This document shows, piece after piece, positions 9,636 to 25,318 of a stretch of 26,428 nucleotides of DNA (the first letter of the stretch is position 1; every line of letters begins with the position of its first letter). The DNA comes from an uncultured virus (IMG/VR IMGVR_UViG_3300036815_000199) (lineage: Duplodnaviria > Heunggongvirae > Uroviricota > Caudoviricetes). The notes under the pieces were generated by a model. That model ran no database searches and was not told the origin of the DNA. It saw only the letters and a program-made list of their open reading frames with translations. The stretch lies in IMG/VR virus record IMGVR_UViG_3300036815_000199; one strand, given 5' to 3'. Made by a program: the position numbers and the translations under genes.

Positions 9636-9895
9636 CAGCTATCACCGCCCGGCACTGCTCGGGCTGCGCCCAGGCCGACCCCATCGACGACGGCGACGGC
9701 TACACCGACTGCTGCAACGAGTGGATCTGCGACGGCACCGGCGCCGACCGGTGGACCGTCGGGACCCTCACGTTCGACGAGGCCGGCCGCGAGGTCCGCA
9801 CCGTCACCGGCGAGCTGCTCGCCTGCTGCGGCGGCCGGGCCGACAAGCTGGCCGCCGACCAGGCCCCCGGCCGCATCGCGCTGTGCCGCAACTGA
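9623..9895 (+). CDS. small Cys-rich protein, probably leaderless; paralog of 6529-6720
   Basis: MRNTTA..CSGC..GYTDCCNE..CDGT..W..GT..RTVTGELLACC. Confidence 0.8.
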   Translation: MRNTTAITARHCSGCAQADPIDDGDGYTDCCNEWICDGTGADRWTVGTLTFDEAGREVRTVTGELLACCGGRADKLAADQAPGRIALCRN

Positions 9896-9919
9896 CCACC
9901 ACCTGAAGGAGAGACCGAC

Positions 9920-10243
9920 ATGACGACCCCCGACACCAGCCGGACCCACCGGTTCCCGCCGACCGGCTGCGTCAACCAATGGGCCGCCGACCACGACCAT
10001 GCCGACTGCTGGGCCGCCTTCCTGGCCTTCCACGAGGCACCGGCCGGGCTGGGCATCGACGAGTTCTACCGCTGGCTGGAGACGACCCCGCACGCCGCCG
10101 ACATCACCCCCGACGGCGACGGGTTCCTGGTGACCTGCCGCCGCGGCTGCGCGCTGGGCACCAGCGCGCGCCAGAGCGACCGGGCGGGCGCCGACCGGCG
10201 GGTCCGGCAGCACCGGATCTGCACGATCCCGCTGACCGCCTGA
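9920..10243 (+). CDS. His/Cys-rich hypothetical protein
   Basis: CCACCTGAAGGAGAGACCGAC RBS. Confidence 0.8.
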   Translation: MTTPDTSRTHRFPPTGCVNQWAADHDHADCWAAFLAFHEAPAGLGIDEFYRWLETTPHAADITPDGDGFLVTCRRGCALGTSARQSDRAGADRRVRQHRICTIPLTA

Positions 10244-11868: not shown

Positions 11869-12333
11869 ATGACCAAGAAGACCATCGAGGGCACGTGGGG
11901 CACCGAGCCGCTGACCTACGGCGGCACCGCCAAGGGCAAGACCGTCGCCCGCCTGTCCGTCTGGTACGACCAGGACCGCGCCGACGCCGCGTTCACCCCC
12001 GACAAGGGGCGCCACTACGCGATCGGCGGCGTCTACGACACCGAGGTCTGCCGCGACGCCGAGGGCGCGATCGTCGGCCGCCGCGGCACGCCCCGGTTCA
12101 CCGGCACCCACCCCGACACCGAGTGGGTCGCCGCGCTCGAGGCCGACGACTACGCCGCCCAGCAGAAGATCGCCACCGGGCAGCTGGAGCGCCGCGCCGC
12201 CCGCGACAGCGAGATCGACAAGGCGCTGCAGCCCGTCGAGGACCTGGCCGCCGGCCTGAACTACGCCCAGCGCGACGCGCTGGTGGCGATGGTCACCCGC
12301 CGGATCTACCGGGCCAGGGCCGGGAGGGGGTGA
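11869..12333 (+). CDS. hypothetical protein (MTKKTIEGTW...)
   Basis: GAAGGAGAGAGACCCG RBS; high GC3. Confidence 0.8.
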   Translation: MTKKTIEGTWGTEPLTYGGTAKGKTVARLSVWYDQDRADAAFTPDKGRHYAIGGVYDTEVCRDAEGAIVGRRGTPRFTGTHPDTEWVAALEADDYAAQQKIATGQLERRAARDSEIDKALQPVEDLAAGLNYAQRDALVAMVTRRIYRARAGRG

Positions 12334-12344
12334 CGGCCGCGGAG

Positions 12345-12409
12345 GGCGAAACCCCCGGATAACGTCGGGGGGTCCGCGCGGAGACGAGCGCCCGCGCGCT
12401 GACGAGGCC
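12345..12409 (+). ncRNA. type II hammerhead ribozyme
   Basis: GGC-GAAA-CCCCC..GGGGG-TC^-CGCGCGG-loop-CCGCGCG-CTGACGA-G-GCC. All core nucleotides and stems I-III are present; predicted cut after C12374. Confidence 0.88.
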
Positions 12410-12450
12410 AGCCGGCCATCAGCCCAGCTCGCACCTGAAGGAGAGAGACC

Positions 12451-12927
12451 ATGTACCCGTACCCAGACACCACCATCGACACCGGCCAGCCCGCCGCCCG
12501 CCCGGTCTACCGCCGCCCGGCCGTCCTCGCCGTGATCGCCATCGTGGTGATCGCCGCGACCGCGCTTAGCCTGTTCCTCGCCGGCGTGTTTACCAGCCAG
12601 GCGCAGACCCCGGCCGGCATCTTGCAGGCTGACGGCTACACCGTCACCGCATCGCAGACCGTCGACCAGGCCGCCGCCGCCGGCGCATTCAACGACGCCA
12701 CGGGCAAGACCCTCAAGCCGTACATCGTGGCGATCGCCGCGGGCACGCACGGGAAGGCCGGCGAGGGCGTCGTCCAGCTGACCGACGCCGGCCGCACCAT
12801 GTTCGCCAGCCTGATGCCGCTGCTCAGCGGCCAGATGAGCGCCGGCGTGACCGCCCACATGGCCGGCAACTTCCTGGTCCTGGACGGCACGGCGGCGCAG
12901 GTCGGCACGATCGGCAGCTTCGGATGA
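12451..12927 (+). CDS. membrane-anchored/secreted protein
   Basis: RRPAVLAVIAIVVIAATALSLFLAGVF TM segment; strong RBS. Confidence 0.85.
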   Translation: MYPYPDTTIDTGQPAARPVYRRPAVLAVIAIVVIAATALSLFLAGVFTSQAQTPAGILQADGYTVTASQTVDQAAAAGAFNDATGKTLKPYIVAIAAGTHGKAGEGVVQLTDAGRTMFASLMPLLSGQMSAGVTAHMAGNFLVLDGTAAQVGTIGSFG

Positions 12928-13337
12928 CCGCCGCCGCCACCCCGGCGGGCGCCCACGCGGCGCCCGGCCGGGGCCGGACCACCGTCATCATCGCCGCCGC
13001 CGTCATCGCCGCCGTGGTCGCCGTCGTGGCGTTCCTCGCCGTGACCGTGACCGGGCAGTCCGGCCAGATCGGCGCGCTGCGCGGCCAGGTCGCCACCGCC
13101 CAGCACGCCGCCGACGCGGCGAGCGCCAAGGCCAACGCGGCCGCCGGGACCCGCTCGGCCGCCGCCACCGCCCACCTCGGCGTCTGCGTGGCCACCAGCT
13201 ACAACAGCGACGCCGGCGCGAGCTGGGTCCAGTCCGTCGCCGTGACCGCGCCGGTGCTGGTCTCCGGCGTCGCCTCGTGCCCGTCGGGCACGTTCGTCCC
13301 CGTCAGCCCGCAGCCCGGCGGCCAGCCCGCCAGCTAA
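12924..13337 (+). CDS. membrane-anchored protein with Ala-rich stalk
   Basis: N-terminal TM, ATGA overlap, two Cys in the C-terminal domain. Confidence 0.8.
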   Translation: MTAAATPAGAHAAPGRGRTTVIIAAAVIAAVVAVVAFLAVTVTGQSGQIGALRGQVATAQHAADAASAKANAAAGTRSAAATAHLGVCVATSYNSDAGASWVQSVAVTAPVLVSGVASCPSGTFVPVSPQPGGQPAS

Positions 13338-13343
13338 CCCGCG

Positions 13344-13377
13344 CCCGGCCCGGCCGCTCCCCGGCGGCCGGGCCGGG
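13344..13377 (+). terminator. 14-bp GC hairpin
   Basis: CCCGGCCCGGCCGC / GCGGCCGGGCCGGG just after the stop at 13337; no U-tract. Confidence 0.55.
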
Positions 13378-13427
13378 GCGACGGGACGAGCGTCCCGTGA
13401 CCTGCGGTTACCCCCTCGCCGCGTTGC

Positions 13428-13487: not shown

Positions 13488-13727
13488 ATGACCGATCCGC
13501 AGCCGGGCATCACCTGCCCGCCCGACCCCGGGCGCCTGATCAGCGACGCGCGCCGCCAGCAGGGATTCCGCGACCAGGCCCACCTCGACCGGTGGTTCGC
13601 CTACTCCGACCACACCAAGGAGTGCCCGGACTGCGGCCTGCCCGGCGACGGCTACGACGGCCCCGACGGCTGGCAGCCCACCGTCACCCAGTGCGCCGAC
13701 GCCGCGCGCCTGCTCGCGCTGGTCTGA
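13488..13727 (+). CDS. small H/C Zn-binding hypothetical protein
   Basis: CCACCTGAAGGAGAGAGACACACC RBS; H-x3-CPDC...C. Confidence 0.8.
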   Translation: MTDPQPGITCPPDPGRLISDARRQQGFRDQAHLDRWFAYSDHTKECPDCGLPGDGYDGPDGWQPTVTQCADAARLLALV

Positions 13728-13762
13728 CCGTCGCCGCGGCGACGGCTGACCGGCAATCAACT

Positions 13763-13817
13763 GGACCGAAACGCGCAAACGGCGTCCGGGGGACAGAGAC
13801 CCCGCCGATGATGGTCC
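13763..13817 (+). ncRNA. type II hammerhead ribozyme, core variant (CCGAUGA)
   Basis: GGACC-GAAA-CGC..GCG-TC^-CGGGG-GACAGAGA-CCCCG-CCGATGA-T-GGTCC; predicted cut after C13786. Confidence 0.8.
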
Positions 13818-13858
13818 CAACGCCCGTCACCGAACTGCACACAGAAAGAGACACCACC

Positions 13859-14167
13859 ATGGCACCGAACACCACCCCGAAGCCCGACGAGATCGCCCGC
13901 ACGCTGGCCGGCTACGCGACCGCCGACCTGTCGACCACCTGCGCGATCTTCGCCGGCATCCTGCAGTCGGTCCGCCTGACCGGCCCCGACGACCAGATCC
14001 CGGCCGGCATGGCCGGCGCCAAGGCAGGCGCCGACAAGCTGCGCGTCGAGACCGACAAGTGGGGCAAGCGCTTCCGCAAGGTCAACGGCACCGGCCAGGC
14101 GGCCGACGACCCGATCGCCAAGCTGGTCGCCGCCGGCCAGGCCGCCCTCGCCCAGCCCGCCGAGTAG
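13859..14167 (+). CDS. hypothetical protein (MAPNTTPKPD...)
   Basis: AGAAAGAG RBS downstream of the ribozyme; high GC3. Confidence 0.8.
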   Translation: MAPNTTPKPDEIARTLAGYATADLSTTCAIFAGILQSVRLTGPDDQIPAGMAGAKAGADKLRVETDKWGKRFRKVNGTGQAADDPIAKLVAAGQAALAQPAE

Positions 14168-14260
14168 GCGCCAGTCCCCCGACCGCCCGCGCGCCCCGTT
14201 AGTGGGGCCGGGGCGCGCGGGCACCCCGGGACCAGCCCCCCGCCAGCGAAGGAGACCACG

Positions 14261-14716
14261 ATGACGACGACGATGACCAGGTACGCGGTCCACGCCGGGT
14301 TCATCTACGACCCGCGGCTGCTGACCCCCGGCGCGGTCGAGAAGCTCACCGACCGGGCGCTGATGGCGCTGGCCGTCGCGCTGACCCCCGGCTACCTGAC
14401 CCCGGGCGGCATCGAGAAGACCAAGACCGGCAAGCAGCGGCAGATCGACGAGGCCAAGCTCGACACCCTGCTGCGGCTGATGGTCAACGACCTGCACATC
14501 CGCACCGCCGACGGCTACACCGAGAGCGCGCTGCGGTTCCGGCTGGCCGCGCTCGGCGCCGACCGCGGCGTCCTGCAGCCCGACGGGTCCCCGTTCGGGC
14601 GGCCGGCCCGCGACCACGGCCCGTGGGCGCTGTGGGACGTGATGACCGACCAGCGCCGGGACCGCGAAGAGCCCGGCCGCCGCACCTCGGCGCGCGGCTG
14701 CGCGCCGCGCTACTGA
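14261..14716 (+). CDS. hypothetical protein
   Basis: GAAGGAG RBS. Confidence 0.8.
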   Translation: MTTTMTRYAVHAGFIYDPRLLTPGAVEKLTDRALMALAVALTPGYLTPGGIEKTKTGKQRQIDEAKLDTLLRLMVNDLHIRTADGYTESALRFRLAALGADRGVLQPDGSPFGRPARDHGPWALWDVMTDQRRDREEPGRRTSARGCAPRY

Positions 14717-14744
14717 CACCACCACCACGAAGGAGAGAGACCCG

Positions 14745-15759: not shown

Positions 15760-16554
15760 TCACGCCAGGTCGAACGCGACCTCCAGCACCCGCCCGGCCA
15801 GCGTGACCTGCTCGAGATAGGACCAGCACCGGCCGGCGGGGTCGAACCACATCCACACCGTGGCCGACACGTACGCGCCCGGTGCCAGGCCGAGCAGCGG
15901 CCCCTCCCGGCCGTCGTCGAGGACCGGCCGCGCCTCATACGCGGTGCGGCCGCGGGCGAACGTGACCGGCTTGTGCGGCCACCGGTCGGGGTCGGCGGTC
16001 CGCTCGGTGATCAGCGGCAGCGCGCCGCGCGGGTCGGCCAGCGGCACCCGGTGCAGCAGCTCGGGGCACGGCCCGGACAGCTCGCCGGGGAACCACTCGA
16101 CCGACAGCGCGAACGGCCGCGAGCCGCCCTCGCCGTCGTCCTCGAGGTAGCGCTGCTCGCGGCGCACCACCGGCACGACCCCGTTGCGCGGCGCGGCCTC
16201 CAGGTCCAGCAGCGGGATCAGCCGCGGGTAGACGGCCGCGGCGTCCAGGTAGTCGGCGGCGGTGACCTCGACGTGCTCGGCGGGCGGCGGCCCGGTCCAC
16301 GACAGGCGCTGCACCGGTCCCTGCTTGTACCGGCCGGCCTGCACGTAGGAGCCGGTCGGGTCGGTGCGGACCAGCCCGTCGACGTCGCGCAGCCAGGTGA
16401 CGGCGCGGTTGGCGGTCGCCGAGCTGACGCCGTGGGCGGCGGCGAGCGCCCGCACCGACGGCAGCCGGATCCCGTCGGCGAGGCGGCCGGTGCTGATGTC
16501 GGCGGCCAGTTCGTCGTGCAGCTGCTCGGCGGGCGACCGCAGGTCGATGGGCAT
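15760..16554 (-). CDS. GntR-family repressor with UTRA-like domain (KorSA/TraR-like)
   Basis: RLPSVRALAAAHGVSSATANRAV wHTH; divergent from transfer genes as on actinomycete plasmids/AICEs. Confidence 0.88.
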   Translation of the reverse strand: MPIDLRSPAEQLHDELAADISTGRLADGIRLPSVRALAAAHGVSSATANRAVTWLRDVDGLVRTDPTGSYVQAGRYKQGPVQRLSWTGPPPAEHVEVTAADYLDAAAVYPRLIPLLDLEAAPRNGVVPVVRREQRYLEDDGEGGSRPFALSVEWFPGELSGPCPELLHRVPLADPRGALPLITERTADPDRWPHKPVTFARGRTAYEARPVLDDGREGPLLGLAPGAYVSATVWMWFDPAGRCWSYLEQVTLAGRVLEVAFDLA

Positions 16555-17342: not shown

Positions 17343-17752
17343 CCCGCACCGCCCGCCGGCCCCTGGCCCGGGTGATCGGCGACGCCACCGACCGTCACCG
17401 CGGCGCGGTCCGCCTCGTCGCCCTGGCCGTGCTGATCGCCGGCGGGATCTGGTGGCACTGGCACACCGTGCTGCCGCTCGTCGCCCTGGCCGGGGCGCTG
17501 GCGGCCGAGGGAACCCGGCTCGCTGCCGAAGCGTGGGGCTGGCAGCGGGCCGGGGGCCGCGCCGAGCTGCGCCGCCAGCGCCGCCACGGCGGCCCCGCGC
17601 CGATGCGCGAGCTGTTCACCCACATGTCGCTGACCGCCGCCCGCCGCGCCGTCCGCGGGCTGCGCCCGTCGCTGGCCGGCCGTCGCCTCCGCTCGATCCC
17701 GGCGCACGACGCGGGGATCTACCTCGGCACCGCGAGGAGGGCAGCGCGATGA
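17339..17752 (+). CDS. membrane protein resembling the N-terminal anchor of a coupling protein
   Basis: Two hydrophobic segments, then G.A..REL...MS..AARR...LRPSL...GIYLG; ATGA overlaps on both sides. Confidence 0.7.
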   Translation: MTRTARRPLARVIGDATDRHRGAVRLVALAVLIAGGIWWHWHTVLPLVALAGALAAEGTRLAAEAWGWQRAGGRAELRRQRRHGGPAPMRELFTHMSLTAARRAVRGLRPSLAGRRLRSIPAHDAGIYLGTARRAAR

Positions 17753-19227
17753 ACTGGTGGCACCTGCGCCCGCAGGTCAACGTCTACGGGTCGTTCCGGT
17801 ACGCCTACGCGGTGATCGGGCCGCCCGGGTCCGGCAAGACCGGGTTCCTGGCCCGCACCGGCCTGGCCGCCCCCGGCCCGGCGCTGATGTCCTCGTCGAA
17901 CTACGAGCTGGCCCGCGACACCGCGGTCGCGCGCAGCCGCGACGGCCTCGGCCCGGTCTGGTGGATCAACCCGCGCGGCGCCGGCGGGTTCCCGTCCAAC
18001 TGCGGCTACAGCCCGCTGGCCGGCTGCGCCGCGCCCGACATGGCGATGGAGGCCGCCGGGGCGCTGATGGCCGCCGCGCCGCACGACAAGAAAGACGCGC
18101 ACTGGGACGGCTGGTCCAAGACGTTCCTGCAGTACCTCATGCACGCCGCCGCGCTGCACCCCGACCGGCCCGACATCCGGCTGGTCCGGCAGTGGGCCGC
18201 CGACCCGGCCAGCCCCGACGAGCCGATGGCCGTCCTGGACCGGTGGGGCACCGACGGCTGGGCGCAGCAGCTCGACGACGTGGCCGCCATGTGCCGCACC
18301 GACGGCGACGGCCGGACCGCCGCGGCGATCGCCGGCGGCGTCCTGGCCGCCCTCGCCTGGCTCGACGACCCCGGCCTGGCGGTGCTGGCCTGCCCGCCGC
18401 CCGGCTATGAGTTCGACGCCCGCGCGTTCCTCCGCGACCGCGGCACCGTCTACGCGATCGGCTCCGACTCCGAGCACAACCCGCAGACCCCGTACCTGTC
18501 CTGTTTCGCCACCCACGTGTGGAACGAGGCCAACCGCGCCGCCCAGGACCCGCTCGAGGCGTGCTCGGCGCGCGGCAAGCTCGACCCGCCGCTGCTGATC
18601 GTCGGCGACGAGCCGGGCAACTCCTGCCTGGTCCCCTACGACAAGTGGGCGTCGACCGCCGGCGGCCGCGGGATCTGCCTGGTCACCGGCTGGCAGTCCG
18701 AGGCGCAGATGCCGCAGCGGTGGGGCGACCACGCCGCCCGGGTGATGCTCGACGCGTTCGGCTGCACCATCGTCTACGGCGGCGTCAAGGGCGAGCTGGC
18801 CACGCTGGCGTCCTCGTGGGCCGCCGACAAGCCCACCTGGACCAAGGGGGAGCGCGGCGCCCGCACGCTCGGCAGCGTGCCGACGTTCAGCCCGGCGGTG
18901 CTCGGCACGCTCAAGGATTTCCGGGCGATGGTCAAGTACAAGAACCGGCGCGCGTTCCTGTGCGACATGCCCGACCCGCGCGACCACCCGTGGTACCGCG
19001 AGGCCACGTTCGCCGACTTCCCGCCCGAGCCGGCGTGGGAGCTGCCCGCGCTGGACTCCCGGTCTCGCCGCGCCGCCGTCCAGGCCGCCGCCGGCGCCGG
19101 CCTGTCCGCCGTCCCGTCCAATGGCCGCCCGGCCGTCACCCGTCAAGGAGCACCGTCATGGCCACCACAACTAAGCAGCAGGCGAGCCCTCCCGGGCGCC
19201 GGCCGTCCTGGCGGGCGCGCCGGCTAG
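17749..19227 (+). CDS. VirD4/TraG/TraD-like type IV coupling ATPase
   Basis: Walker A GPPGSGKT, PGPALMSS, YSPLAGC, Walker B LLIVGDE, GGRGICLVTGWQSEAQMPQRWG. Confidence 0.88.
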   Translation: MNWWHLRPQVNVYGSFRYAYAVIGPPGSGKTGFLARTGLAAPGPALMSSSNYELARDTAVARSRDGLGPVWWINPRGAGGFPSNCGYSPLAGCAAPDMAMEAAGALMAAAPHDKKDAHWDGWSKTFLQYLMHAAALHPDRPDIRLVRQWAADPASPDEPMAVLDRWGTDGWAQQLDDVAAMCRTDGDGRTAAAIAGGVLAALAWLDDPGLAVLACPPPGYEFDARAFLRDRGTVYAIGSDSEHNPQTPYLSCFATHVWNEANRAAQDPLEACSARGKLDPPLLIVGDEPGNSCLVPYDKWASTAGGRGICLVTGWQSEAQMPQRWGDHAARVMLDAFGCTIVYGGVKGELATLASSWAADKPTWTKGERGARTLGSVPTFSPAVLGTLKDFRAMVKYKNRRAFLCDMPDPRDHPWYREATFADFPPEPAWELPALDSRSRRAAVQAAAGAGLSAVPSNGRPAVTRQGAPSWPPQLSSRRALPGAGRPGGRAG

Positions 19228-19955: not shown

Positions 19956-19997
19956 CACCCCGTATTGTCCCAGGTCAGCGACCCGAAGGAGAGACCG

Positions 19998-20720
19998 ATG
20001 ACCACCACCCAGGCAGCCCGCGAGGCGTGGAGCCGCGACGACGCGCTGTCCGCGTTCCTGGCCGTCACCGCCCGCCCCGCCGCCGACCCCGACGACGGCA
20101 CCGACCTGATCATCCTGACCGACGCGCAGCTGGCCCGGCTGCGTCCGATCGTCGACCGGGCCCGCCGCGTCGGCTACTGCCTGCAGTGCGACCCGGCGTT
20201 CCCCGAGGTGTGGGCACCGGTCGACGGCTGGCCGCACCTGGCCAGCTCGCACGGCATGGTCCGGTCGCGGCGCCGGCTGCTCACGCTGCGGCCGATGAAC
20301 CGGCCGCCCGGCGACGGCGTGGTCAAGTACGAGCAGACCGACCTGTGCGCCGGCGGCCGCCAGGTCACCCGCCCGGTCCACCAGATCCTGCTGATGGCCT
20401 TCGAGGGGGCACGGCCGAGCGACAAGCACGAGTCCTGCCACGGCGACGACGTCGCCAATCACAACCACTGGACCAACCTGCGCTGGGGCACCGACAACGG
20501 CCTGGACCACGCCCGGCAGGCCGCGTTCACCAGCCCGGGCGCCGCTGCCCGCCGCTCCGACGCCGCCCGCCGCGCCCAGGCCGCCGGCGCCGGCCGGCTC
20601 GCCGCCATGCGCGACGCCGACCGCGCAACACACCGTGACAATGACACGCAGCGTCACGGCCTGGCGAGGGTCACCGGCTGGCTAGCCAGTCACCGACTGT
20701 GGCGACAGGCGGGCCGGTGA
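19998..20720 (+). CDS. NUMOD4-HNH endonuclease-like protein
   Basis: EVWAPVDGWP..ASSHGMVRS (NUMOD4); VHQILLMAFEG..ESCHGDD..NHNHWTNLRWGT (HNH). Confidence 0.85.
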   Translation: MTTTQAAREAWSRDDALSAFLAVTARPAADPDDGTDLIILTDAQLARLRPIVDRARRVGYCLQCDPAFPEVWAPVDGWPHLASSHGMVRSRRRLLTLRPMNRPPGDGVVKYEQTDLCAGGRQVTRPVHQILLMAFEGARPSDKHESCHGDDVANHNHWTNLRWGTDNGLDHARQAAFTSPGAAARRSDAARRAQAAGAGRLAAMRDADRATHRDNDTQRHGLARVTGWLASHRLWRQAGR

Positions 20721-24012: not shown

Positions 24013-24443
24013 GGGTCCGGATCGGCACCGGCGGGCTGCTGGCGCTGATCGTCCTCGCCGTGATCATCCTGATCGCCGGGCTGCGCTGGCTCGGCTCCAA
24101 CGCCGCCGCTATCAAGGCCGGGGTCGGCACCGGCGTGCTGGTCCTCGTCGTCGCCGGGGTGCTCGGCCTGGCCGTCCACTGGCTGCTGCGCGCCTACCAG
24201 GCCGAGGCGCTGCCCTGGCAGCAGCGGCCCGCGCCGCCCGCCATGCCGCCGGCCGTGATGACCGCCGAGGTGCTGCCCGCCGCCCCGGCCGAGCTGACCG
24301 CGCCGGCCGCGCCTGCCGCGATCGCCGCGCCGCCGCCGGGGGTCACGGTCGTCGTGAGCACCGCCGAGGCCGCCGCGGCGTTCGCCGCCAACCTGCACGT
24401 CCCGCCGCAGGGCGGGCAGGGCGGCGGGAGCCCGGCGGAGTGA
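24009..24443 (+). CDS. two-TM membrane protein with Pro/Ala-rich tail (Spd-like)
   Basis: ATGA overlap; two hydrophobic helices. Confidence 0.75.
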   Translation: MRVRIGTGGLLALIVLAVIILIAGLRWLGSNAAAIKAGVGTGVLVLVVAGVLGLAVHWLLRAYQAEALPWQQRPAPPAMPPAVMTAEVLPAAPAELTAPAAPAAIAAPPPGVTVVVSTAEAAAAFAANLHVPPQGGQGGGSPAE

Positions 24444-24682
24444 CCGCCGCGGCCGGCGCGGGGAGCGTCACTACGATGATGCGCCGCCGCCGCGGCGGCC
24501 AGCCTGGGGCGGCGGCGACAGCCACGTCCACGACACCGCCCCAGGTCCTTGAGGCTGAGCCCACCGGCCGTCCGTGTGTGGCCGCAGGGCACGACGGGAC
24601 GCTATCAAGCCCGCCGCGGCCGCGCCGCCCGAACCGGGGAACTGATGGCGTTTTCACCGCGGCGGCTGAGGGGGCCGCCGCG

Positions 24683-25318
24683 GTGCCCGATCCTGATGGC
24701 GCTTTTACGCAAAAACGCCATAGGAACGCGCACGCCGGGTCGGAGCGGCCCGCCGAGCCGCTGACCCCCGCCGAGGTCGCCGGCCTGCTCGCCGCGTGCT
24801 CGCGGTCCTCCTGGAGCGGGGTCCGCGACCGGGCGATGATCACCGTGCTGTACCGGTCCGGGCTGCGCGTGTCGGAACTGCTCGGCCTGCGGCTGTCCGA
24901 CCTCGACCCGGCCGCGCGGACGCTGCGGCTGCGGCACACCAAATCGCGTCGCCCGCAGACCCGCGGCTACCACCCCGCCGCCGACGACGCCCTGGCGCTG
25001 TGGCTGCAGCTGCGCCGCCCGATGGGGCCCGGGCCGCTGTTCTGCACCCGGGCGGGCGGCCCGATCTGGCCGCAGCAGGTCCGCGCGACGCTCGCCCGCC
25101 TGGCGGCCCGCGCGCAGATCGACAAGGCGGTCCGGCCGCACGGGCTGCGGCACACCCTGGCCGTCGAGCTGCTGCGCGCCGGCGAGGACATCGCCATGAT
25201 CTCCAAGGTGCTGGGCCACTCCTCGATCGCCACCACGGCGCGCTACCTTGATCACCTGACCAACAGCGCCGCGCTGGCCCGGCTCACCACGGCCAGCCTG
25301 CCGGCGCTGGGCCCGTGA
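24683..25318 (+). CDS. tyrosine recombinase, catalytic domain only
   Basis: RDRAMI..LYRSGLRVSE (R), HTK (K), HGLRH, LGHSS, ARYL (Y). Start chosen at GTG after GAGGGG; uncertain, frame is open from 24440. Confidence 0.92.
   Translation: MPDPDGAFTQKRHRNAHAGSERPAEPLTPAEVAGLLAACSRSSWSGVRDRAMITVLYRSGLRVSELLGLRLSDLDPAARTLRLRHTKSRRPQTRGYHPAADDALALWLQLRRPMGPGPLFCTRAGGPIWPQQVRATLARLAARAQIDKAVRPHGLRHTLAVELLRAGEDIAMISKVLGHSSIATTARYLDHLTNSAALARLTTASLPALGP

What the first reader, a model, noticed from the sequence alone, without database searches (positions are those of the whole stretch)
13763..13817. Second hammerhead with a non-canonical core (CCGAUGA) and entirely different stems
Seen: stem II GGACC/GGTCC, GAAA, stem III ACGC/GCGT, GUC, stem I CGGGG/CCCCG, core CCGATGA plus one extra U. 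Topology and the one-nucleotide insertion match the first ribozyme while stem sequences differ, so the two copies support each other. U4 is C, so it is either a natural core variant, a rate-tuned ribozyme or a decaying one (inference). It lies about 40 nt upstream of gene 13859.
Basis: partly seen in the sequence, partly recalled or inferred. Interest (0 to 1): 0.8.

Follow-up and report, generated by a model that had tools for sequence, protein, structure and literature searches.

The report
Hammerhead ribozyme with C4 core variant
A small self-cutting RNA motif of the hammerhead type sits just upstream of a gene in a soil actinobacterial mobile element. Its one-letter change in the catalytic core recurs in many related phage-borne copies, so it is probably a working, perhaps slower, variant rather than a wreck.

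Summary
The motif is at 13763-13817 (+) exactly as described: a type II hammerhead three-way junction with core CCGAUGA (C13806 at position 4), one extra U, and GUC with cleavage expected after C13786. Chance is excluded: 0 of 1500 shuffles give such a motif. Rfam does not report it. It is a full-length match (67.8 bits, E about 4e-16) to a model built from nine unrelated viral-contig hammerheads. These belong to a subfamily with a 5-bp stem I, an 8-nt loop RANNGWGA, flanking CU and C, and a U insertion. All three stems covary strongly in this subfamily. C4 is a recurrent natural allele. In viral contigs, 31 of 66 C4 pattern matches fold as hammerheads. The figures are 0 of 36 for A4/G4, 0 of 48 at position 5, 0 of 94 at position 6 and 4 of 63 at position 8. 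The only relative of this element keeps C4, with 1 change in 59 nt against 28 in 156 nt of non-coding flanks. The best reading is a functional, probably slowed, mRNA-processing ribozyme. Cleavage itself is untested.

The parts
13761..13762 (+). Conserved 5' flank CU just before stem II
   Evidence: CU (once CA) precedes stem II in nearly all subfamily members. It is part of model R1 (alignment).
13763..13767 (+). Stem II, 5' strand (GGACC); the open stem of a type II hammerhead
   Evidence: Pairs with 13813-13817. Helix 1 covaries in the family: 4 of 5 pairs show changes on both sides.
13768..13771 (+). Core GAAA (G12 A13 A14 and A15.1)
   Evidence: Invariant in all aligned members.
13771..13785 (+). 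Stem III hairpin: ACGC / GCGU with a 7-nt loop
   Evidence: The same ACGC...GCGU stem III occurs in more than 85 viral-contig hammerheads.
13786..13787 (+). Predicted cleavage site: C17 = C13786, scission between 13786 and 13787
   Evidence: Position in the hammerhead consensus (GUC then stem I). Cleavage is not shown.
13787..13804 (+). Stem I hairpin: CGGGG / CCCCG with the 8-nt loop GACAGAGA (family consensus RANNGWGA)
   Evidence: All 5 pairs of this helix show changes on both sides across the family.
13805..13811 (+). Core box CCGAUGA; C13806 replaces the consensus U4
   Evidence: C4 is kept in the relative L001. C4 recurs in 31-32 other well-formed viral hammerheads.
13812..13812 (+). Extra U between A9 and G10.1
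   Evidence: A family trait: 27 of the 48 aligned rows carry it, all of those with a 5-bp stem II (rows printed; counted by eye).
13813..13819 (+). Stem II 3' strand GGUCC and the conserved 3' flank C(A)
13820..13858 (+). Rest of the leader, with a weak Shine-Dalgarno-like GAAAGAGA before the ATG at 13859
   Evidence: 33 of 44 family members have a Shine-Dalgarno-like motif plus a start codon within 70 nt downstream.
13859..14167 (+). Downstream gene (102 aa, no family found)
   Evidence: Frame and GC3. No Pfam, NCBIfam or PHROG hit. One relative at 89% identity.
13488..13727 (+). Upstream gene of the same operon (79 aa)
12345..12409 (+). First, canonical type II hammerhead (CUGACGA plus a G insertion), 1.35 kb upstream on the same strand
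   Evidence: Rfam RF02276 at 34.3 bits (gathering score 37), E 0.0015. Descriptor hit.

Best explanation
The element at 13761-13819 is a genuine member, by descent, of a distinct subfamily of type II hammerhead ribozymes carried by phages and other mobile elements. It lies in the 131-nt spacer between two small genes of a long plus-strand operon in an actinobacterial integrative or conjugative-type element. When the polycistronic RNA is made, the three-way junction folds. The RNA most likely cuts itself after C13786, leaving a 2',3'-cyclic phosphate on the upstream piece. The downstream piece gets a 5'-OH end and begins with the stem I hairpin 72 nt before the ATG at 13859. The result is a separate message for the downstream gene with a defined, structured 5' end. 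C in place of U4 is a tolerated natural allele of the U-turn. It probably lowers the cleavage rate, so that only part of the transcripts is processed. What is shown: the fold, the homology, the covariation, the recurrence of C4, the conservation and the gene context. What is inferred: cleavage, its rate and its effect on the mRNA.
For: 1) The motif is not chance: 0 of 1500 shuffles.
2) Model R1 was built only from nine U4 hammerheads of unrelated viral contigs. It matches 13761-13819 end to end at 67.8 bits, E about 4e-16. The next hit not attributable to a hammerhead scores 15.6 bits or less.
3) The subfamily is real. Across 30 aligned members, 99.3% of cells are paired against 72.5% in shuffles. 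13 of 16 pairs show changes on both sides, and the covariation score is 0.56 against 0.15; slid controls reach at most 0.12.
4) C4 is specifically tolerated in nature. Among pattern matches in viral contigs, 31 of 66 with C4 are well-formed hammerheads. None of 24 with G4, none of 12 with A4, none of 48 with a changed G5 (a complete scan) and none of 94 with a changed A6 are well-formed. Four of 63 with a changed G8 are.
5) In a scan that took U or C alike, there were 85 well-formed U4 and 4 well-formed C4. In the subfamily, 6 of 30 are C4.
6) C4 copies fall into at least 8 sequence clusters with 26 different stem I arms. Comparable C4 pairs show 22 compensatory double changes.
7) The one related element (L001) keeps C4 and differs at 1 of 59 positions, at a loop base that is A or U in the family. 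The non-coding flanks differ at 28 of 156 positions, one-sided p 0.0006; against the whole rest of the block p is 0.011.
8) Context fits. 33 of 44 family members sit within 70 nt (median 23) upstream of a Shine-Dalgarno-like motif plus a start codon, against 3 of 44 in an upstream control. No promoter-like site lies between the two hammerheads and their genes.
9) Literature. Tandem hammerheads flank single genes in prophages and cut about 2-kb polycistronic RNAs in vitro. A U4C viroid variant cleaves poorly in vitro yet suffices in vivo (PMC3088659: section 8 read in full, other passages read).
Against: No cleavage data exist for this RNA or any C4 type II hammerhead that I could find.

In a comprehensive mutagenesis of a type III hammerhead, all single mutants of the CUGA U-turn had low activity (PMC9901934, passage read). 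Perreault et al. say U4C 'considerably decreases activity in vitro'.

Rfam's Hammerhead_II model does not report the site, even at E up to 10 on 181 nt, nor its orthologue in the 108-kb record.

The fold energy is not better than shuffles.

The recurrence counts come from patterns that fixed all other core bases and one stem III sequence. They therefore cannot show that C4 copies keep the rest of the core by selection.

Conservation rests on one close relative. A second soil run only repeats it.

No Watson-Crick pseudoknot of the kind that stabilises typical type II hammerheads is evident.

The model's training sequences were fished with a pattern taken from this very motif.
Confidence: 0.6

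Rival explanations
1. A recently disabled hammerhead. A U-to-C transition killed or nearly killed catalysis, and the rest of the motif has not yet had time to decay. It has no present function.
For: U-turn single mutants have low activity in the laboratory (PMC9901934 passage; PMC3088659 Discussion passage). Rfam does not report it. Some C4 copies differ from a U4 copy by almost nothing else (similarity ratio 0.96), which is what a fresh mutation looks like. One C4 subfamily copy (L444 594-649) also has a mismatch in stem II. Decayed copies do exist next to intact ones (L506 496-556, 19 bits).
Against: If fresh lethal hits were being sampled, transitions at G5 and A6 should appear about as often as at U4. 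There are none among 48 and 94 pattern matches, against 31 of 66 for C4. C4 is shared by two elements whose non-coding flanks differ at 18% of positions, while the ribozyme differs at 1 of 59. C4 copies differ from each other by compensatory stem changes.
Confidence: 0.2
2. A hammerhead-derived fold that no longer cuts and is kept for another job, such as a structured 5' leader that protects the message, binds a protein or affects translation of the gene at 13859.
For: The structure is conserved and always lies just before a ribosome-binding site. In the longer context, the core box and the 3' strand of stem II can instead pair with the leader at 13821-13830.
Against: All other catalytic bases are intact here and in the relative, which a non-catalytic fold would not need. 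The alternative hairpin is not better than shuffled leaders (z -0.8 for the window; mean -0.42 over 43 members). No covariation data for it exist.
Confidence: 0.1
3. A chance look-alike in G+C-rich DNA.
For: The folding energy is no better than that of shuffled sequence. There is no Rfam match.
Against: 0 of 1500 shuffles give the motif. It scores 67.8 bits against an independent family model, while background in 46.7 kb stays at 15.6 bits or below. It is conserved in a relative. It shares family features that the search pattern did not ask for: the CU flank, the RA start of the loop, the U insertion and the trailing C.
Confidence: 0.01

Closest known systems
Type II hammerhead ribozymes of prophages and phages (Perreault et al. 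2011, PMC3088659; Rfam RF02276 Hammerhead_II)
   Same: The permutation is the same: stem II open, stems I and III capped. The GAAA, GUC and CUGANGA-type boxes are the same. The location is the same: intergenic, on the coding strand, between small non-conserved genes of a mobile element, with a second hammerhead nearby.
   Different: Position 4 is C, not U. No Watson-Crick pseudoknot between loop I and the 3' tail is apparent. Instead there is a fixed 5-bp stem I with the conserved loop RANNGWGA and conserved CU and C flanks. RF02276 scores the canonical subfamily members at 23.1-31.7 bits, all below its gathering score of 37, and does not report this one or the other C4 copies.
U4C hammerhead variant of a viroid (Ambros and Flores 1998, known to me only through its citation in PMC3088659; the paper itself is not held)
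   Same: The same base change at the same core position. It is reported as much less active in vitro yet sufficient in vivo.
   Different: That is a type III hammerhead in a replicating RNA and a single variant. Here the change is in a DNA-encoded type II hammerhead of a bacterial mobile element, and it recurs in dozens of independent copies.
A6C hammerhead of phage Bcep176 (PMC3088659 section 8; PMC7151607, abstract and introduction read)
   Same: A natural single-base core variant in a phage intergenic hammerhead. Its activity is low in Mg2+ but the ribozyme is still functional.
   Different: It is at another position. A6C favours Mn2+. In my scans no well-formed A6 variant with this stem III turned up (0 of 94), whereas C4 is common.
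The canonical hammerhead at 12345-12409 in the same window
   Same: Same strand, same type II order, a one-base insertion after A9, and a 41-nt spacer to the next ATG.
   Different: It has a canonical U4, a 7-bp stem I with a 10-nt loop, and a 3-bp stem II that may extend through a tandem G.A internal loop. It scores 21.9 bits to the subfamily model. It lies in a gene module that the relative L001 lacks.

Membership tests
Hammerhead ribozyme, type II | Three helices around a junction in the order stem II 5' strand, GAAA, hairpin III, cleavage site, hairpin I, CUGANGA, stem II 3' strand | tested here: met
   Sequence, MFE fold, descriptor, model alignment.
Hammerhead ribozyme, type II | Core bases C3, G5, A6, G8, A9, G12, A13, A14, the pair A15.1-U16.1, and H17 (not G) | tested here: met
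   All are present: C13805, G13807, A13808, G13810, A13811, G13768, A13769, A13770, A13771-U13785 and C13786.
Hammerhead ribozyme, type II | U at core position 4 (the U of the CUGA U-turn) | tested here: not met
   C13806. The strict consensus is therefore not met. I file the element as a hammerhead by descent with a variant core, not as a proven ribozyme.
Hammerhead ribozyme, type II | Score at or above Rfam's gathering cut-off for RF02276 (37 bits) | tested here: not met
   No match at gathering score, none at E up to 10 on the window or on 181 nt. Canonical members of the same subfamily also stay below 37.
Hammerhead ribozyme, type II | Site-specific self-cleavage giving a 2',3'-cyclic phosphate and a 5'-OH | not testable with these tools
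   No RNA sequencing run holding the stretch was listed.
Hammerhead ribozyme, type II | Tertiary contact between stem I and stem II (in type II usually a Watson-Crick pseudoknot of loop I with the 3' tail) | tested here: inconclusive
   I found no complementary tail by eye. Loop I (RANNGWGA) and the flanks CU and C are conserved in the subfamily, which suggests a contact of another kind.
GWGA-loop subfamily of type II hammerheads (defined here) | CU flank, 4-5 bp stem II, GAAAC, 5-bp stem I, 8-nt loop RANNGWGA, a U insertion when stem II has 5 bp, and a trailing C | tested here: met
   67.8 bits, model positions 1-60 of 60. All listed features are visible in the alignment rows.
GWGA-loop subfamily of type II hammerheads (defined here) | Position just upstream of a ribosome-binding site on the coding strand | tested here: met
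   41 nt to the ATG at 13859. The family median is 23 nt, and 33 of 44 members qualify.

The most novel reading that the evidence does not exclude
C4 hammerheads are a selected, functionally distinct class and not merely tolerated slow copies. Replacing the U-turn uridine by cytidine would make cleavage depend on a condition. Candidates are pH (a protonated C, or its amino group, replacing the U N3-H contact to the A6-N7 phosphate) or the metal ion (as A6C does for Mn2+). Phages and conjugative elements would then use U4 and C4 alleles to set how much of a polycistronic RNA is cut before each gene.
Probability: 0.25. Interest if true: 0.65.

Novelty: new variant of a known kind. Interest (0 to 1): 0.5.

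Why it matters
Hammerheads between phage and mobile-element genes have been known since 2011, but their role is still called an open question (PMC6155905, passage read). This case adds two things.

First, there is a coherent subfamily that the standard Rfam cut-off misses altogether, so such elements go unannotated in soil actinobacterial mobile DNA.

Second, there is a clear natural experiment on the catalytic core. U4-to-C is common in otherwise intact copies, while changes at G5 and A6 are absent. Yet bench mutagenesis rates all U-turn mutants as poor. Either slow cleavage is good enough (or wanted) for mRNA processing, or the type II scaffold rescues C4. Either answer bears on how much activity a genomic ribozyme needs, and it is directly testable with wild-type and C13806U pairs.

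My two text searches found no paper describing C4 in bacterial or phage hammerheads. Subscription journals are not covered by those searches.

Tried and rejected
**Rfam.** Nothing at gathering score and no hammerhead call at this site at E up to 10. The same holds for the relative's whole 108-kb record.

**Relatives.**
- No whole genome is held for the window.
- Genome contigs gave no relative of the downstream protein or of the TraG-like protein.
- The phage and plasmid collections gave no useful DNA match.
- The downstream protein has only one relative in the large protein collection.
- The earlier-findings index had nothing.

**Expression.** No RNA holder was listed. The three DNA runs laid only repeat the window and the L001-type arrangement. 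One run has no cover over the ribozyme.

**C4 linked to U at position 7.** The raw counts are 28 of 32 against 45 of 85 (p 0.0005). After crude clustering they become 6 of 8 against 12 of 19 clusters, so I do not claim it.

**Alternative hairpin between the core box and the leader.** It is not better than shuffled leaders for the window (z -0.8). Seven of 43 members fall below z -1.64. I leave it as a lead.

**Pseudoknot of loop I with either flank.** I looked by eye and found none that convinces.

**The 18-nt palindrome at 13728-13745.** It lies on a deletion junction relative to L001 and is not conserved.

**The longer gene call starting at the ATG at 13808, inside the core box.** I reject it. 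GC3 there is low by my reading, and two 1-nt deletions in L001 break that frame.

**Papers.** Ambros and Flores 1998 and Nelson and Uhlenbeck 2008 are not held. For PMC9901934 I saw only the list of supplements, so per-mutant activities such as U4C were not seen. Figures 5, S6 and S7 of PMC3088659, which show the tested core variants, could not be viewed.

Full report
**The observation**

The window is 74.6% G+C. At 13763-13817 on the plus strand the sequence reads GGACC GAAA CGC-GCAAACG-GCG U C CGGGG-GACAGAGA-CCCCG CCGAUGA U GGUCC. This is the type II order of a hammerhead. The 5' strand of stem II comes first, then GAAA, hairpin III closed by A15.1-U16.1, then C17 (C13786), hairpin I, the 7-nt box, one extra U, and the 3' strand of stem II. 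The only departure from the 11 conserved core bases is C13806 where U4 is expected.

ViennaRNA folds the 71-nt stretch into exactly this junction. The energy is ordinary for such G+C-rich sequence, with z -0.37. A descriptor scan of both strands finds only this site and the canonical hammerhead at 12345-12409. Allowing any single mismatch in the 7-nt box, with stems of at least 4 bp, no hit arose in 1500 dinucleotide-preserving shuffles of the window. With stems of at least 3 bp, 12 of 1500 shuffles had a hit.

**What the standard library says**

Rfam finds nothing in the window at gathering scores. At E up to 10 it reports Hammerhead_II (RF02276) at 12344-12417 with 34.3 bits (gathering score 37), E 0.0015. 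It reports nothing at 13763-13817, and nothing there even when only 181 nt are searched. By Rfam's rule, neither hammerhead in this window would be annotated.

**Surroundings**

GC3 frame analysis and ORFs show a run of small plus-strand genes from about 6.7 to 15.6 kb. None has a Pfam, NCBIfam or PHROG family. After them come:
- a divergent GntR-type regulator (15760-16554, minus strand);
- a protein with a TraG-D_C domain (17452-19227);
- an HNH endonuclease-like protein (19965-20720);
- a Xer-type tyrosine recombinase (24440-25318).

To the left lie a DNA ligase, an MFS transporter and a P450. This looks like an integrative or conjugative-type actinobacterial element rather than a tailed phage, although IMG/VR holds its relative as a viral record.

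The ribozyme lies in the 131-nt spacer between genes 13488-13727 and 13859-14167. No sigma-70-like promoter is seen between 12200 and 14300. A public gene call for the downstream protein is 119 aa long, which puts its start at the ATG at 13808, inside the core box. That stretch has low GC3, and the relative has two 1-nt deletions in it. I therefore take 13859 as the start.

**The only close relative**

The downstream protein has one relative in the large protein collection, at 89% identity. Its DNA is an IMG/VR record of 108 kb, fetched as L001. The two elements are syntenic but mosaic:
- The window's 12318-13382, which holds the first hammerhead and two genes, is replaced in L001 by one other gene.
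- L001 has an extra gene of about 0.6 kb ending just before the second hammerhead.
- The window's 14256-14728 is absent from L001.

The second hammerhead is present in L001 at 9886-9940 with C4. It has a single change, A13797 to U in loop I. Over 13761-13819 there is 1 difference in 59 positions. The non-coding flanks of the same homology block differ at 28 of 156 positions (one-sided Fisher p 0.0006). Against all other columns of the block, p is 0.011.

A contig of a third soil run shows the same arrangement and the same single change, so it is not independent. This is evidence of purifying selection on an element that already carried C4, but it rests on one comparison.

**A family for it**

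Of 126 unique matches, 89 meet a strict fold test: contiguous stem I of at least 4 bp, stem II of at least 3 bp, and 0-1 inserted base. Of these, 85 have U4 and 4 have C4. Many contigs hold several copies a few hundred bases apart, as described for prophages (PMC3088659, passages read).

A second pattern asked for HHR2's geometry only: GAAAC, GUC, nine bases, GWGA, five bases, CYGANGA. It gave 68 stretches. Of the 69 matches, 21 are well-formed, 17 with U4 and 4 with C4. A further C4 copy has a mismatched stem II.

These share features the pattern did not demand:
- CU before stem II and C after it;
- a stem II of 4 bp without an insertion, or of 5 bp with an inserted U;
- a 5-bp G+C-rich stem I;
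- a loop that reads RANNGWGA.

I built covariance model R1 from nine U4 members with the 5-bp stem II. None came from the window or its relative. With filters off it scores 13761-13819 at 67.8 bits (E about 4e-16, rough calibration) over all 60 model positions. The L001 orthologue scores 67.0 and the first hammerhead 21.9. Everything else in 46.7 kb scores 15.6 bits or less.

Over 69 sources R1 finds 30 members at E up to 0.001. On their model-fitted alignment, the counts are as follows:
- 99.3% of cells pair, against 72.5% in shuffles;
- 13 of 16 pairs show changes on both sides;
- the covariation score is 0.56, against 0.15 in shuffles and at most 0.12 when partners are slid.

Such an alignment leans toward the model's structure, and the members were fished with a pattern taken from this motif. 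Both caveats apply.

A metagenome scan for HHR2's own stem I, with either U4 or C4 allowed, gave 16 stretches. All 16 are strong subfamily members at 52-81 bits, and all have U4.

Rfam's RF02276 gave 9 matches in 8 of 20 subfamily loci, at 23.1-31.7 bits. None reached 37 and none fell on the four C4 copies in those loci.

**Is C4 a wreck or an allele?**

I scanned viral contigs with the same stem III pattern while forcing a non-consensus base at one core position at a time. Counts are unique pattern matches.

| Position forced | Scan status | Well-formed / matches |
|---|---|---|
| 5, any non-G | complete, 63 stretches | 0 / 48 |

With another de-duplication key, one search counts 32 well-formed C4 copies.

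The C4 copies fall into at least 8 clusters (similarity ratio 0.8) and have 26 different stem I arms. Many keep a tail complementary to loop I, as typical type II hammerheads do. Among 29 comparable C4-C4 pairs there are 22 compensatory double changes, 26 single changes that keep a pair, 12 pair-breaking changes and 81 changes at unpaired positions.

If the C4 copies were freshly killed ribozymes, transitions at G5 or A6 should be sampled about as often. They are not. Only a pyrimidine is accepted at position 4.

The limits are these:
- The patterns fixed the rest of the core, so these counts cannot show that C4 copies keep it by selection.
- Only hammerheads with one stem III sequence were sampled.

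**Bench knowledge**

[quoted passage not shown] They also state that the phosphate linking A6 and N7 contacts U4 (PMC3088659, Discussion and section 8 read). Roberts et al. found low activity for all single mutants of the CUGA U-turn in a type III hammerhead (PMC9901934, passage read; per-mutant values not seen). A natural A6C phage hammerhead is slow in Mg2+ but works with Mn2+ (PMC7151607, abstract and introduction read). Searches for 'U4C' with 'hammerhead' and for 'CCGAUGA' with 'hammerhead ribozyme' found no report of C4 in bacterial or phage hammerheads.

From my own recall, not from any call: C can replace the U of the anticodon-loop U-turn in some initiator tRNAs. This would fit a pyrimidine-only tolerance.

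**How it most likely works**

Shown: the fold, the homology, the covariation of the family, the recurrence and conservation of C4, and the position. On position, 33 of 44 family members have a Shine-Dalgarno-like motif and a start codon with an open frame within 70 nt downstream (median 23 nt). The same test on the upstream side gives 3 of 44. Here the distance is 41 nt, the same as for the first hammerhead.

Inferred: the operon transcript cuts itself after C13786. The downstream message begins with a 5'-OH and the stem I hairpin, 72 nt before its start codon. The upstream piece ends in hairpin III with a cyclic phosphate. With C4 the rate is lower, so a share of the transcripts stays polycistronic.

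That a 5'-OH, hairpin-capped end protects against 5'-end-dependent RNases of actinobacteria is general knowledge applied by inference.

I put the odds as follows:
- about 0.95 that this is a true hammerhead-lineage element;
- about 0.6 that it cleaves at a biologically useful rate;
- 0.2 that it is a recent dead copy;
- 0.1 that it is a fold kept for another purpose;
- 0.01 or less that it is chance.

**Comparison and novelty**

It works like, and descends from, type II hammerheads. By the strict consensus (U4) and by Rfam's cut-off it fails membership, and I say so in the table. The class and the genomic setting are known. The U4C change is known from one viroid.

Three things appear new:
- a subfamily below Rfam's threshold, with a conserved GWGA-type loop and no evident pseudoknot;
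- C4 as a frequent, specifically tolerated allele in phage and mobile-element hammerheads, at about 4 of 89 in the broad sample and 6 of 30 in the subfamily sample;
- the contrast between that frequency and the bench data.

I rate it a new variant of a known kind, of moderate interest.

Noticed in passing
window 12345-12409 (+): A canonical type II hammerhead (CUGACGA, G insertion after A9). Rfam RF02276 gives 34.3 bits, just under its cut-off of 37. It lies 41 nt before the ATG at 12451, inside a module (12318-13382) that the relative L001 lacks. Contigs of two other soil runs cover it with some differences.
   Followed up: partly
L426-L509 (viral and metagenome loci), e.g. L434 1494-1553, L507 377-436: A subfamily of type II hammerheads with a 5-bp stem I, loop RANNGWGA, and CU and C flanks. 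Its canonical members all score below Rfam's gathering cut-off (23.1-31.7 bits), so they would be missed in routine annotation.
   Followed up: yes
Viral loci, e.g. L020, L030, L057, L070, L012; also L432 2020-2093, L496, L504: In many type II hammerheads the bases right after stem II (GUCAG, CGUCAG, AUCAG) are complementary to the CUGAYGA box itself. This would form a hairpin that competes with the active core. Over 43 subfamily members the mean z against shuffled leaders is -0.42, and 7 fall below -1.64.
   Followed up: partly
L536, L549, L564, L614; L388: Four otherwise well-formed hammerheads have A at position 8 (CUGACAA, CUGAUAA), giving C3 opposite A8. One has U at position 3 (UUGACGA), giving U3 opposite G8.
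   Followed up: no
window 14168-14260 (+): After the stop of gene 13859-14167 the same frame stays open, with GC3 of 0.9 or more and no ATG, GTG or TTG until 14261. This could be an unusual start, a read-through or an assembly error. The relative L001 lacks 14256-14728.
   Followed up: no
window 13808-13858 (+): A public gene call of 119 aa for the downstream protein implies a start at the ATG inside the ribozyme's core box. Low GC3 and two 1-nt deletions in L001 argue for the ATG at 13859 instead.
   Followed up: yes
window 13728-13745 (+): A perfect 18-nt palindrome (CCGTCGCCGCGGCGACGG) follows directly after the stop codon of gene 13488-13727. It sits on the junction where L001 carries an extra gene of about 0.6 kb, and it is not present as such in L001.
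   Followed up: partly
L431 (266-327, 872-933, 1267-1325, 2150-2205); L506 392-452 and 496-556: One viral contig holds four hammerheads within 2.4 kb. In a metagenome contig, a decayed copy (19 bits, several core and stem changes) lies about 100 nt from an intact one. This shows what a decaying copy looks like.
   Followed up: no
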